This document shows, in pieces, positions 11,301-14,300 of a stretch of DNA of 14,559 bases. The stretch lies in IMG/VR virus record IMGVR_UViG_2576861104_000005. The stretch is one strand, 5' to 3'. The position numbers were made by a program. The DNA is from a virus. Taxonomy: Duplodnaviria; Heunggongvirae; Uroviricota; Caudoviricetes. How positions within the stretch are numbered: the first letter of the stretch is position 1; every line of letters begins with the position of its first letter.

Positions 11301-14300
11301 AGGTCACCAATGCCATTTTCGGTACCCATGAGTTCCGGGCGTCAGATTATGAGATCACCACAGCACAGTTTGGCACCATTGGCATTTACAGCAATAAAGC
11401 CGAGATCAAGCAGGCAATGGACTCAGCAAGCGCGCGCATCGCAGCAGAACGGGAAGCCAATCTGAATCATGCAGTCGCCGCGCTGACTCAATCGTGGGTA
11501 ACAGCAATCAGGGAGGCCGCCACCACAGGGAAAATCACATCTGCAATAGCGGATGTCGTAAACGATGGCTCTAAATTTATGGATGCCTATCAAATGGATG
11601 CGGTGAAGTTGCCATCAGCCTATGGTCAACTCCGCTATCGCATGACCTACAACCTGGTATCAATGTTTACTGACCTTGCCATCCTTGGGCTGGTGGATCT
11701 TAACGAGGTTACGCCGGAATTGCTCAGCATGCGCAAGAATCATGTGGAGATATTGCAGAGAATTAACACGGTTCTTGCCGGGCGCACCGATGAAGAGAAA
11801 CAGGCCGACGCTGATCGGATAAACCTGGCCCTTGGCAACATCACGGAGGAAGAGATTGCCGCCAGAAACGAGAAACAAGAAGAGTTATCATCAATACAGG
11901 GTGATGCCACCAGCATAGCTCAGTCTCTTGGTCTGAATTATCGCGTATCCACCGCCGACCTGAAGATGATGTACGCACCAAAATTCGCCGCTGGCGAGGT
12001 ATTTGGGCTTCAGGAAGCCTCAGGCATGAAAGGAGTTCTTTTCCGTGCGAAAGACGCAATCAAGGCGAAATTCGGCGCTCGCTGGCTGCCAGCGAAGGCG
12101 AAGAACAGCGATTTCCCGGGTAACTGGTGGATTATCGAGACAAAACACAACGTGGCGGACGTTCTGGCCGTCATCCAACAATACGCATAACAGGAGCGCC
12201 CGGTTCGCCGGGCGTCGCATAATATGGCCACACTATCTGATACAATAAAACCGAATAAAACATATCTTGAGGCGGTACTGCGTACAGCGTTGTTAGGAAA
12301 GACAGAAGACGAATACGTTGATTTCTTCCTGTCAGGGCTACGCGGGCGATTACTGAAAAATCCACGCCTGTACCGCAGCTATGGCCCATACTGGCCGGAA
12401 ATAAAAAAATTATTACTGGAGCGCGGTTATGGTAATTTCGGTCGTCTCGTTGACCGTGACGTTCGCAAAATTTACCGTTATGACCGCCCGGCGCTGACAC
12501 TCATAGCCGCGACGCTCTACAGCCAGGAGCGTTTCGATAATGGCCAGATATACTCAGCCTGGCATTTACTGCCAGTGCCTGAAGAGGTTGACGACCAGGA
12601 CTATGAGTTTGAGTCTTACGATTTGGAAGTTGAAGCCTTAGCACAGGCTGGAGAGAAAACTTGAAAAAGCGATACTACACAGTAAAGCATGGGACGCTAC
12701 GAGCATTACAAGAGTTTGCTGACAAGCATAACGTTGAGGTGCGCAGGGAAGGGGGGAGTAAAGCTCTGCGCATGTACCGTCCTGACGGAAAATGGCGGAC
12801 GGTCGTCGATTTCAAAACTAACAGCGTTCCCCAGGGCGTCCGCGACCGGGCATTCGAAGAATGGGAGCAAATCATCATAGATAATGCATTGCTCCTGAAT
12901 GCAGATTGATTTCTTATTAGGCCACTTTATTTTTTAGAGTGGCCTAAATTACTCATAATTAGGATGTGATATGAATGTTTTTATTGATACAAATCTATAT
13001 TTAGAATTTTATCGAATGGGTAAGGATAAATTAGATGAGCTAGATAAAGTATTTGCCTTACATCAATATGGTCGTTTAAAACTTTGGTTGCCAGAACTTT
13101 TAGTGAATGAATTCTGGAGAAATCGTTCTAAAGTTCTCTCTGAAACCATAAAGGAAATTGCAAAAGACTACAAGCCCGCGCTACCACAGATTTTTAGACA
13201 GCATGAAAAACATTCACTATTTAATGATAAGGTTATAGAAGCTAGTCGGCTAAAGAATGAAATTATTACCGATATCCAGAACTTATTTAAAGAAGAGGCT
13301 TTAGCTGCCGATGTTGTAATTAAAAGGATTTTTGATGCAGCGTCTAAGATAGAGGCTGATGATGAAACAATAGAAAAGGGGAAACGCCGATTCGATCTTG
13401 GCAACCCTCCGGGTAAAAATAAATCATATGGTGATGCAGTCAATTGGGAGTGTTTGCTAAAAGCGATACCAAACGGAGAGGATATATACATTATAACTGA
13501 AGATGGTGATTATAAAAGTGCCTTTATAAAGGATGATATGAATGAGTATTTGAAGTACGAGTGGAAAAAGAAGAAAGATTCAGAACCACATATCTATGCC
13601 CGCTTATCAGAGTTTATAGGCGAGCACTTTCCTCAAGCCAGTAACTTGGCGGAAATGGAAGTTAATTTCACTATAGATGAATTACGCCGCTCAGGCAGTT
13701 TTGCCACAACACATCGAGTTGTAGCAAAGTTATTAAAATTCAATCATTTTACACAAGAGCAAATCCTAAAAATAATCGACATCTATTTTAATAATGATCA
13801 GGTTGGCTTCATTAAAGATGATGATGATGTAAAACTACTCGCCAGAAGACTAATATCACTTGGTGACGAGGATAAAGATCCTGAAGGGATGCTTGAGCCA
13901 TTCCGTGTATTTATTGATTAATTAATGTAATGGGCGTGGGCGCATAGTTAGCGCCCAAGAAGTTTAAAGATAATTATCTCTGCCGGTTAATGAACCTTGA
14001 GGCACTTTCCGTGCGGTCATTTCATGAGTAGCTTGAATTATATTCACAAGGGAGCTTAGTAACGACGGTTCTTGGCGGGCCTCAACTTCTCCAGCCACTG
14101 CCCTGATGTAGTCGGAGCTTGCAACGTTGTTGTATTCCGTTGCGAAGCAGCATAACAACGTCAGAACGTGCTCTGTCGTTATTTCGCTCCAGTTGATGTT
14201 GAAAAATTCATCGCCTTTTTTGTCATGTTCGGAATCGAAGATGCTTTGGTGGAGGATGTATTTGCCGGATTCCTTGCGCGGTAACTTGATCGCTTTCTGG

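What the first reader, a model, noticed from the sequence alone, without database searches (positions are those of the whole stretch)
12910..13963. AT-rich single-gene cargo with a PIN-like nuclease protein at the position of P1 res/mod: candidate undescribed defence or abortive-infection gene
In P1, as I recall the map, the type III restriction-modification genes mod and res follow lxc. Here that slot holds a compositionally foreign block: a 316-aa ORF with A/T-rich codon usage, bounded upstream by a perfect 10-bp inverted repeat and downstream by a hairpin. The protein opens with MNVFIDTNLY, and its conserved acidic residues (E in LVNEFW, D in GDAVNWE, TEDGD) are spaced as in PIN-domain RNases/DNases. 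The C-terminal ~130 aa is unrecognised. A phage swapping its restriction system for a stand-alone PIN-like effector at the same locus suggests an accessory anti-phage or toxin function. This is the most likely novel element in the window.
Basis: partly seen in the sequence, partly recalled or inferred. Interest (0 to 1): 0.8.

Follow-up and report, generated by a model that had tools for sequence, protein, structure and literature searches.

The report
Stand-alone PIN nuclease in P1 defence slot
A P1-like phage-plasmid carries, where phage P1 keeps its restriction system, a foreign single gene for a PIN-type nuclease fused to a helical domain; it is very probably an untested anti-phage gene, distantly related to the recently described Cosus defence protein.

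Summary
Window 12971-13921 (+) is a 316-aa ORF in a low-GC block (35% against 52%). The block fills the lxc-mat slot of a P1-like phage-plasmid and has a hairpin on each side.

The slot is a known variable region. It holds EcoP1I res/mod in P1 and CapRelSJ46 in SJ46. Elsewhere it holds DUF2971 (PDC-S31), a GNAT gene, IS1 or nothing.

Homologues lie beside Hachiman, type I and type IIG R-M, in a prophage, and as a Vibrio integron cassette. dN/dS between alleles is 0.075.

PIN_12/DUF4935 was described computationally in 2017. One PIN_12 protein, Cosus (Brc24), is a validated anti-T7 system, but it shares no detectable full-length similarity and has a different C-terminus.

Verdict: a credible, untested single-gene defence candidate and a new variant of a known kind.

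The parts
12908..13963 (.). Foreign low-GC cassette filling the lxc-mat ('res-mod') slot of the P1-like backbone
   Evidence: Homology to P1, SJ46 and RCS47 ends at 12907 and resumes at 14035, or at 13962 in the GNAT-carrying plasmid. GC is 0.35-0.38 against about 0.51 in the flanks. The same cassette sits at the same site in 22 of 701 P1-like plasmid records and in 30 of 5426 complete E. coli genomes, always on plasmids.
12917..12947 (+). Stem-loop directly after the lxc stop codon: 13-nt arms with a perfect 10-bp core and a 5-nt loop. Probably an RNA-level terminator, attenuator or stabiliser at the cassette's 5' edge; there is no U-tract.
   Evidence: z = -5.3. The diverged allele keeps the stem through a C-to-T change that gives G.U only in the + strand RNA. 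Each alternative cargo brings its own, different hairpin at this position.
12961..12964 (+). Shine-Dalgarno-like AGGA, 6 nt before the ATG
   Evidence: Read directly. It is GAGGA in the diverged allele.
12971..13921 (+). 316-aa ORF: PIN_12/PIN_8 nuclease domain plus a C-terminal helical module
   Evidence: AlphaFold2 model with pLDDT 91. dN/dS is 0.075 against the 91.6%-identical allele. The homologues form a family of about 315-335 aa.
12977..13513 (+). PIN domain (residues 3-181) with a long helical insert (about residues 42-123). Predicted metal-binding residues are D6, E47, D155 and D178/D180. Family-specific invariant residues are R50, N51, R52, D114, R140, the GNPPGK motif 144-149 and W159.
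13583..13918 (+). C-terminal all-helical (HEAT/ARM-like) module, residues 205-316. Proposed sensor or regulatory domain.
13646..13861 (+). Residues 226-297: the stretch that matches positions 298-369 of the 384-position PADLOC model PDC-S34
   Evidence: E = 1.4e-11. All 42 family members hit PDC-S34, and in every member tabulated individually the hit lies within model positions 284-375.
13931..13957 (.). GC-rich hairpin between the convergent PIN gene and mat. Probably a shared transcript end.
   Evidence: It is conserved in the diverged allele.
12661..12909 (+). lxc (bof), the conserved backbone gene that forms the left border of the slot
13964..14402 (-). 3' part of mat (maturation control), the right border of the slot. 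It is cut at 14402/14403 by a Tn3-family end.

Best explanation
The cassette is a horizontally acquired, single-gene anti-phage (superinfection-exclusion) module carried by a P1-like phage-plasmid in its defence-cargo slot.

The product is one polypeptide with two parts. The first is an N-terminal VapC-type PIN nuclease of the PIN_12/PIN_8 group. It has an intact acidic metal-binding set (D6, E47, D155, D178/D180) and a belt of invariant basic residues (R50, R52, R140, K149) suited to holding nucleic acid. The second is a C-terminal HEAT-like helical module.

Proposed working, all inferred. The gene is expressed from the resident plasmid prophage, either by read-through from the ulx-lxc operon past the hairpin or from a weak promoter of its own. 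The helical module holds the nuclease in check or gives it specificity. On infection by another phage, the nuclease cuts phage or host nucleic acid, with RNA more likely than DNA for a VapC-like PIN. That blocks phage growth and protects both the host and the resident P1-like element.

Shown here: the fold, the conserved residues, the foreign origin, the slot, purifying selection, and the defence-island, prophage and integron contexts of homologues.

Inferred only: expression, nuclease activity, substrate, trigger and phenotype.
For: 1. PIN identity.
- Pfam PIN_12 scores 66 bits against a cut-off of 32.
- The model has pLDDT 91.
- The acidic residues are invariant across 42 homologues down to 33% identity.

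2. The slot carries defence cargo.
- P1 has the type III R-M genes res/mod.
- SJ46 has a 373-aa RelA/SpoT protein. It matches PADLOC PDC-S33 over its full length, E = 7e-87.
- I take this protein to be CapRelSJ46, a validated anti-phage fused toxin-antitoxin that PMC9712102 attributes to phage SJ46. It is the only RelA/SpoT gene I saw in that phage; I did not compare sequences with the paper.
- Another cargo, DUF2971, matches PDC-S31.
- Other plasmids have a GNAT gene, IS1 or an empty slot.

3. Contexts of homologues.
- The Serratia homologue is next to Hachiman HamA/HamB.
- A metagenomic homologue overlaps by 4 bp the end of an MmeI-like type IIG R-M gene.
- The homologue on Klebsiella- and Enterobacter-type chromosomes lies in an island with type I R-M, HNH, Mrr, ScoMcrA-HNH, CbtA/CbeA and SymE.
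- The Pantoea homologue is at a prophage end.
- The Vibrio homologue is a one-gene integron cassette between attC-like repeats.

4. A PIN_12 protein, Cosus/Brc24, gives complete T7 resistance, and D14A weakens it. Cosus D14, E52, D153 and D177 align with D6, E47, D155 and D178 here.

5. The C-terminal module is shared with PADLOC defence candidate PDC-S34.

6. The gene is functional and under selection. dN/dS is 0.075, and the C-terminal part is less constrained than the PIN part.

7. It is accessory cargo: 22 of 701 P1-like plasmids and 30 of 5426 E. coli genomes, never on a chromosome.
Against: - There is no phenotype, expression or biochemical data for this subfamily.
- It matches no known defence system in PADLOC-DB v2.0.0 beyond a partial hit to an untested candidate. 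NCBIfam gives nothing.
- It has no significant full-length similarity to Cosus. BLASTP and hmmsearch find nothing, and hhalign probability is 0.06. The Cosus phenotype therefore cannot simply be transferred.
- In Cosus the text reports strong loss only for T12A, D14A and D96A out of 11 mutants. It does not report such loss for D153A or D177A, so even there classical PIN catalysis is not proven.
- No consensus sigma-70 promoter was found between lxc and the ATG. The P2mod -10 of P1 is not conserved here.
- One of seven homologue contexts looks like housekeeping genes, and another is merely a variable region.
- Guilt by association cannot separate defence from other accessory roles.
Confidence: 0.6

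Rival explanations
1. Fused toxin-antitoxin or addiction module. The PIN domain is a toxin held in check in cis by the C-terminal module. Its main role is stable inheritance of the plasmid prophage (post-segregational killing) or competition with other plasmids, not phage defence.
For: The PIN domain is structurally closest to VapC toxins. The architecture of an N-terminal toxin-like domain plus a C-terminal regulatory domain parallels CapRelSJ46 at the same slot. The element is a low-copy plasmid. The homologue in the Klebsiella-type island lies near the CbtA/CbeA and SymE toxin systems. Cosus carries an 11% fitness cost when strongly expressed.
Against: A single stable polypeptide has no obvious way to kill only plasmid-free segregants. 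P1-type elements already have phd-doc for this (established knowledge; the operon is mentioned in PMC9603915). There is no antitoxin ORF or known RNA in the cassette. Many homologues are chromosomal or integron cassettes, where addiction has little meaning. Fused toxin-antitoxins such as CapRel act as phage defences in any case.
Confidence: 0.13
2. A counter-defence or host-takeover nuclease that serves the phage-plasmid itself. It would degrade host or competitor RNA or DNA, or a host immune component, to help the element establish or replicate. This would fit its position next to the anti-restriction genes darB and ulx.
Against: The same slot holds bona fide defence systems, not anti-defence genes. 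Homologues sit in chromosomal defence islands beside Hachiman and R-M genes with no phage around them. The only tested PIN_12 protein defends the cell. The gene is absent from about 97% of P1-like plasmids.
Confidence: 0.1
3. A conserved P1 backbone or housekeeping RNA-processing gene with no accessory role, or a decaying remnant.
For: PIN domains are common in rRNA and tRNA processing. One JGI record even labels a homologue 'rRNA-processing protein FCF1'.
Against: It is present in only 22 of 701 P1-like plasmids and is absent from P1, P7, SJ46 and RCS47. Its composition is foreign. Its distribution is patchy across phyla and it sits in mobile contexts. dN/dS of 0.075 argues against decay.
Confidence: 0.03

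Closest known systems
Cosus (Brc24 / gcu24; ALG87191.1 on plasmid pKAZ2, 382 aa), a mobile-integron cassette anti-phage system (Kieffer et al., bioRxiv 10.1101/2024.07.02.601719)
   Same: Both are stand-alone single proteins whose N-terminal ~180 residues match the whole Pfam PIN_12 model: 126 bits for Cosus and 66 bits here. The motifs correspond: I-D-(T/N) in strand 1, N-E, (G/P)-D-A, and the (E/S)-(D/Q)-x-(D/K) region. Cosus D14, E52, D153 and D177 align with D6, E47, D155 and D178. Both are mobile single-gene cargo, and a Vibrio homologue of the window protein is itself an integron cassette.
   Different: There is no significant pairwise or profile similarity: BLASTP E = 1.3, hmmsearch nothing, hhalign probability 0.06. 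The window family also hits PIN_8, and Cosus does not. The C-terminal halves are unrelated. Here it is about 110 residues, all helical and PDC-S34-like. In Cosus it is about 200 residues with an acidic tail (secondary structure not predicted here) and has no PADLOC hit. Cosus has a demonstrated T7 phenotype; this protein has none.
CapRelSJ46 (fused toxin-antitoxin, RelA/SpoT-type tRNA pyrophosphokinase) of Salmonella phage SJ46 (PMC9712102)
   Same: A 373-aa RelA/SpoT protein, which I take to be CapRelSJ46, occupies exactly the same lxc-mat slot of a P1-like phage-plasmid. It too is single-gene, low-GC cargo with an N-terminal enzymatic toxin-like domain and a C-terminal regulatory or sensor domain. 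It is the best model for how the window protein may work.
   Different: The enzymatic domain is unrelated: a RelA_SpoT nucleotidyltransferase against a PIN nuclease. The gene has the opposite orientation in the slot. CapRel's trigger, the phage capsid protein, is known (title and abstract of PMC9712102), whereas nothing is known here.
VapC toxins of type II VapBC toxin-antitoxin systems
   Different: There is no VapB antitoxin gene. The protein is more than twice as long, with an ~80-residue helical insert after strand 2 and an extra C-terminal domain. Sequence identity is only 11-17%.
PADLOC candidate PDC-S34 (untested 'phage defence candidate', 384-position model)
   Same: The C-terminal ~75 residues match model positions 298-373 in all 42 family members, with E down to 1.6e-16.
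   Different: The first ~297 model positions do not match, so it is a different protein that shares a module. No paper in the searched library mentions PDC-S34.
EcoP1I type III restriction-modification (res/mod) of phage P1
   Same: It lies between the same two backbone genes (lxc and mat) and is likewise cargo of that slot; PMC9603915 lists res-mod among the low-G+C variable regions.
   Different: It is two large genes totalling about 6 kb and has no sequence or mechanistic relation to the window gene.

Membership tests
PIN domain-like superfamily, VapC group, Pfam PIN_12 (PF16289; formerly DUF4935) | Whole-protein score above Pfam's gathering threshold, covering the model | tested here: met
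   66 bits against a cut-off of 32, E = 7.4e-18. Residues 3-181 cover model positions 1-172 of 172. PIN_8 is also above its threshold: 55 against 26.1.
PIN domain-like superfamily, VapC group, Pfam PIN_12 (PF16289; formerly DUF4935) | PIN fold: a three-layer alpha/beta/alpha domain with a parallel sheet | tested here: met
PIN domain-like superfamily, VapC group, Pfam PIN_12 (PF16289; formerly DUF4935) | Three to four conserved acidic residues forming the metal site | tested here: met
   E47, D155, D178 and D180 are invariant and D6 is at least 90% conserved in 42 homologues.
PIN domain-like superfamily, VapC group, Pfam PIN_12 (PF16289; formerly DUF4935) | Metal-dependent nuclease activity | not testable with these tools
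   This needs purified protein and RNA or DNA substrates.
Cosus (Brc24) anti-phage system | Homology over the full length, including the C-terminal half | tested here: not met
   BLASTP finds no significant hit. The family HMM against Cosus gives nothing. hhalign of the two family alignments gives probability 0.06, with only a local match of motifs 3 and 4.
Cosus (Brc24) anti-phage system | N-terminal PIN_12 domain | tested here: met
   Both proteins match the whole PF16289 model.
Cosus (Brc24) anti-phage system | Protection against phage (T7) on expression | not testable with these tools
   This needs a plaque or growth assay.
Integron gene cassette (BRiC-type) | A single ORF bounded by attC recombination sites | tested here: not met
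   In the window the gene is flanked by lxc and mat and by simple hairpins, with no attC-like repeat. The Vibrio europaeus homologue does lie between attC-like repeats in a nine-repeat array.
PADLOC PDC-S34 | A match along the whole 384-position model | tested here: not met
   Only model positions 298-369 match residues 226-297. The same holds for all members tested.
VapBC type II toxin-antitoxin | An adjacent, usually overlapping, small antitoxin gene and a toxin of about 130-150 aa | tested here: not met
   The cassette has no second ORF of at least 25 aa outside the gene. The upstream gene is the conserved backbone gene lxc. The protein is 316 aa. There is no Rfam RNA.
P1 'res-mod' variable region / defence-cargo slot | Located between lxc and mat, with backbone homology breaking at both edges and alternative cargos in relatives | tested here: met
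   Breakpoints are at 12907 and at 13962 or 14035. Alternative cargos are res/mod, RelA/SpoT (PDC-S33), DUF2971 (PDC-S31), GNAT, IS1 and an empty slot. It is published as variable region 1 (PMC9603915).

The most novel reading that the evidence does not exclude
The family would be a new kind of one-protein immune sensor. A small HEAT-like C-terminal module, reused with a different N-terminal part in PADLOC candidate PDC-S34, would recognise a phage component and release a PIN_12 RNase.

About a third of the more distant homologues add a C-terminal tail that copies the tip of bacterial SSB (...DDDIPF, ...DDLPF). This would mean the family watches or is recruited to the SSB interactome or replication forks, which would be a sensing principle not described for PIN nucleases. 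The P1-borne version lacks the tail and would be a variant retargeted to other cues.
Probability: 0.15. Interest if true: 0.7.

Novelty: new variant of a known kind. Interest (0 to 1): 0.45.

Why it matters
If confirmed, it would add a second, structurally distinct branch of PIN_12 nucleases to the list of single-gene anti-phage systems. It would also show that the lxc-mat slot of P1-like phage-plasmids is a true defence hotspot, exchanging type III R-M, CapRel, DUF2971 and PIN cargos. These elements are common in E. coli and Salmonella and often carry resistance genes.

That has practical weight. Such elements spread through clinical and farm isolates and could shape susceptibility to therapeutic phages.

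The shared C-terminal module (PDC-S34) and the SSB-tail mimic in distant relatives give concrete, testable handles on how such stand-alone nucleases are controlled. Neither the presence of a PIN protein nor the variability of the slot is new.

Tried and rejected
1. Direct homology to Cosus. BLASTP, the family HMM against Cosus and hhalign were all non-significant. Only the shared Pfam membership and the motif correspondence remain.

2. Finding proteins that pair the C-terminal module with other N-terminal domains, to identify PDC-S34. A profile search of 1.84 billion representatives gave 1350 hits, but the 150 listed are all this family or fragments of it. The only odd one, P0219 (428 aa), is again PIN_12. 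tblastn of the module against plasmids found only the same gene. PDC-S34's N-terminal part therefore stays unidentified.

3. Sequence search of the PDB with the family profile gave no hit even at E = 10.

5. An own promoter or canonical terminator. The scan found none in the 61-bp leader, and overall counts were at shuffle level. Neither hairpin is followed by a U-tract.

6. A hidden antitoxin or RNA partner. There is no Rfam hit and no extra ORF outside the gene.

7. Literature. Nothing was found for PDC-S34, there is nothing on DUF4935 beyond the 2017 classification and one genome paper, no follow-up on Cosus, and no paper tying a PIN gene to P1-like elements.

8. The source record of the window. 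No PLSDB plasmid has the mat::Tn3-end junction.

9. The backbone-gene and pseudogene readings were rejected on distribution and dN/dS.
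Full report
**1. What is in the sequence**

- The window is a stretch of a P1-like phage-plasmid. It carries darB (5423-12190), ulx (12224-12664) and lxc (12661-12909) on the + strand, and mat on the - strand from 13964.
- GC falls from about 0.51 to 0.35-0.38 exactly over this block. 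The gene has GC 35.4% and GC3 29.7%; darB has 52.1% and 58.0%.
- BLASTN against P1, SJ46, RCS47 and other relatives shows backbone homology ending at 12907. That is inside the lxc stop codon, which is TGA here and TAA in the others. Homology resumes at 14035, or at 13962 in a plasmid with a GNAT cargo.
- The upstream inverted repeat is real. It has 13-nt arms with a 10-bp perfect core and a 5-nt loop. It folds far better than shuffled sequence: -19.7 to -22.4 kcal/mol, z = -5.3.
- The downstream GC-rich hairpin is also real but weaker.
- Neither hairpin is followed by a U-tract, and no consensus promoter lies in the 61-bp leader.
- The cassette holds no second ORF outside the gene and no known RNA family.

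**2. What the protein is**

- Pfam places residues 3-181 in PIN_12 (PF16289, the former DUF4935) at 66 bits against a cut-off of 32. It also places them in PIN_8. NCBIfam has nothing.
- An AlphaFold2 model built on 42 homologues is confident: pLDDT 91, pTM 0.76.
- In an alignment reaching 33% identity, E47, D155, D178 and D180 are invariant and D6 is nearly so.
- The same alignment shows family-specific invariant residues: R50-N51-R52, D114, R140, the G-N-P-P-G-K loop 144-149, W159 and E197-W198.
- The PIN core carries the long helical insert after strand 2 that Matelska et al. noted for DUF4935 (PMC5499597).
- Within that module, residues 226-297 match the last ~75 positions of the 384-position PADLOC model PDC-S34, an untested 'phage defence candidate'.
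- All 42 family members show a PDC-S34 hit, and every one tabulated individually shows this partial pattern. So the module is shared between two otherwise different proteins.
- I could not identify the rest of PDC-S34.

**3. The gene is functional accessory cargo**

- The same cassette sits in the same slot in 22 of 701 P1-like plasmid records and in phage JL22. It is in 30 of 5426 complete E. coli genomes, always on plasmids of 90-107 kb and never on a chromosome.
- Two alleles exist, 91.6% identical in DNA and 93.7% identical in protein.
- dN/dS between them is 0.075: 0.049 for the PIN part and 0.146 for the C-terminal module. This rules out a decaying remnant.
- The diverged allele keeps the upstream stem through a C-to-T change that pairs (G.U) only in the + strand RNA. 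That is a weak hint that the hairpin acts in the transcript.

**4. The slot**

- P1 has mod and res (EcoP1I) between lxc and mat.
- SJ46 has a 373-aa RelA/SpoT protein there. It matches PADLOC PDC-S33 over its full length, E = 7e-87.
[quoted passage not shown] I did not compare sequences with the paper.
- Other relatives have a DUF2971 protein matching PDC-S31, a GNAT acetyltransferase, a small hypothetical gene, IS1, or an empty slot.
- Each cargo brings its own hairpin right after the lxc stop codon.
- The literature already lists res-mod as 'variable region 1' of P1-like phage-plasmids and notes its low GC (PMC9603915).
- The slot is therefore a cargo site in which at least two occupants are proven defence systems and two more match defence candidates.

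**5. Where homologues live**

The family has about 157 hits at E of 1e-3 or better. They are 315-335 aa long and span Enterobacterales, Vibrio, Bacteroidota and others. Seven contexts were read:

- An island on Klebsiella- and Enterobacter-type chromosomes with type I R-M, HNH, Mrr, ScoMcrA-HNH, CbtA/CbeA and SymE.
- The end of a Pantoea prophage, next to a serine recombinase and a lysozyme.
- A Vibrio europaeus array in which the gene is a one-gene cassette between attC-like repeats. There are nine repeats, spaced 516-1929 bp apart.
- A Serratia locus immediately beside Hachiman HamA/HamB.
- A metagenomic contig where the gene overlaps by 4 bp the end of an MmeI-like type IIG R-M gene.
- A Salegentibacter variable region with EndoU and DUF3800 genes.
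- One housekeeping-looking neighbourhood.

Five of the seven are mobile-element or defence contexts. The gene is a single-gene unit in six of them; in the type IIG R-M context its start overlaps the upstream gene by 4 bp.

**6. Closest experimentally known relative**

- Its cassette brc24, named Cosus, has a 'PIN12' domain. It gives complete T7 resistance at high and low MOI. T12A, D14A and D96A weaken it.
- I recovered the true sequence from plasmid pKAZ2 by using the OCR text of the supplement as a query. It is a 382-aa protein, and residues 11-180 match all of PIN_12 at 126 bits.
- Cosus and the window protein have no significant similarity by BLASTP, by HMM against sequence, or by hhalign.
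- Cosus has no PADLOC hit, and its C-terminal half is unrelated.
- A profile-to-profile MAFFT alignment and the local hhalign match do line up the PIN motifs. Cosus D14, E52, D153 and D177 correspond to D6, E47, D155 and D178.
- The two are therefore separate branches of one Pfam family, with the same kind of effector and different partner domains.
- Caveat: the paper's text reports strong loss only for three of its eleven mutants, and some of its residue numbers do not match the protein. Catalysis is thus not firmly established even for Cosus.

**7. Most likely mechanism**

I commit to a single-gene anti-phage module, with confidence about 0.6.

- A VapC-like PIN nuclease with an intact metal site and a basic nucleic-acid-binding belt is coupled to a small helical module that senses or regulates.
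- It would be expressed from the resident plasmid prophage and would cut phage or host nucleic acid when another phage infects. RNA is the more likely substrate.
- The parallel with CapRelSJ46 is the main reason to expect cis-regulation by the C-terminal module. That parallel covers the same slot, a single gene, and an N-terminal toxin-like enzyme plus a C-terminal sensor.
- Expression, substrate, trigger and phenotype are all inferred.
- The rivals are an addiction-type fused toxin-antitoxin (0.13), a nuclease serving the element's own counter-defence or takeover (0.10), and a backbone gene or remnant (0.03). The evidence for and against each is set out in the rival explanations.

**8. Novelty and score**

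- The fold family, the annotation 'PIN domain-containing protein', the variability of the slot and the idea that PIN_12 proteins can defend against phage are all already public.
- What appears new is this branch: PIN_12/PIN_8 plus a PDC-S34-like helical module. It has not been tested as far as the library shows. Its place among the interchangeable cargos of the P1 lxc-mat slot also appears to be new.
- I rate it a new variant of a known kind, with interest 0.45. It is a good candidate for a defence screen and not a surprise to a specialist.

**9. Things seen in passing**

- mat is cut at 14402/14403 by a Tn3-family 38-bp end. The next 136 bp are 100% identical to a stretch annotated 'transposon:Tn3' in P7.
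- The last 21 nt of the window look like an IS26 end, from memory only.
- No plasmid in the collection has this junction. Because mat is disrupted, this particular element may be defective as a phage.
- About a third of distant homologues end in an SSB-tip-like motif such as DDDIPF or DDLPF. The window protein does not.

Noticed in passing
window 14403-14559 (and mat 13964-14402): mat is truncated at 14402/14403 by a Tn3-family terminal inverted repeat (GGGGTCTGACGCTCAGTGGAACGAAAACTCACGTTAAG, 14403-14440). Positions 14403-14538 are 100% identical to a stretch annotated 'transposon:Tn3' in phage P7. The last 21 nt (GGCACTGTTGCAAAGTTAGCG) look like an IS26 end, from memory only. A resistance-element remnant therefore abuts the cassette, and this P1-like element lacks an intact mat gene and may be defective. 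No PLSDB plasmid has this exact junction.
   Followed up: partly
homologues P0030-P0120 and P0121-P0267 (C-termini); not in the window protein: About a third of full-length family members end in [DE]x[ILFV]PF: 36 of 120, and 27 of 76 cluster representatives. Examples are ...DDDIPF and ...EDDLPF, often after a Pro-rich or acidic linker. This copies the C-terminal tip of bacterial SSB, which is the docking motif for SSB-interacting proteins (established knowledge). It suggests a link to the replication or repair interactome in those branches.
   Followed up: partly
L012:8700-18000 (Vibrio europaeus VTYH01000003.1): The 44%-identical Vibrio homologue is a one-gene cassette (10001-10954) between attC-like repeats at 9842-9961 and 10952-11069. 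It lies in an array of nine such repeats with many small unknown ORFs, which is a chromosomal integron cassette array.
   Followed up: yes
L004:1848-2969 (SJ46), L019:693-1703 (pRHB13-C03_3): The other cargos of the same lxc-mat slot match neighbouring PADLOC candidates. The SJ46 RelA/SpoT protein, which I take to be CapRelSJ46, matches PDC-S33 over its full length (E = 7e-87). The DUF2971 cargo matches PDC-S31. With PDC-S34 for the window protein's C-terminus, three consecutively numbered candidates meet at one slot.
   Followed up: partly
window 13964-14034: The 3' end of mat (the C-terminal ~24 codons) does not match P1, SJ46 or RCS47, where homology resumes only at 14035. It does match the GNAT-carrying E. 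albertii plasmid from 13962. The right-hand recombination breakpoint of slot exchanges can therefore lie inside mat.
   Followed up: partly
window 12907-12909: The lxc stop codon is TGA here and in the diverged PIN allele, but TAA in P1, SJ46, RCS47 and the GNAT plasmid. The left junction of the cassette lies within the stop codon itself, and every cargo supplies a different hairpin right after it.
   Followed up: partly
L018:1490-1570 (E. coli O157:H7 pF1273-3): In the 91.6%-identical allele the upstream stem has one C-to-T change. It keeps pairing as G.U only in the + strand transcript, which hints at an RNA-level role for the hairpin. The -10-like CATAAT becomes CTTAAT, and the Shine-Dalgarno sequence improves to GAGGA.
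   Followed up: no
L013:3540-4688 (pKAZ2, Cosus/Brc24) and the supplement of 10.1101/2024.07.02.601719: Several residue numbers used for the Cosus mutants (D6A, E42A, S57A) do not fit the deposited protein, where the primers change D7 and E38. T12, D14, D47, D153 and D177 do fit. The canonical second acidic residue, E52 (the N-E motif), was not among the eleven mutants.
   Followed up: partly
P0391, P0395, P0401, P0408 (Cosus homologues): Some Cosus-family proteins of about 462-467 aa carry an added cold-shock (CSD, PF00313) domain. That is an RNA/ssDNA-binding fusion, consistent with a nucleic-acid substrate for PIN_12 proteins.
   Followed up: no
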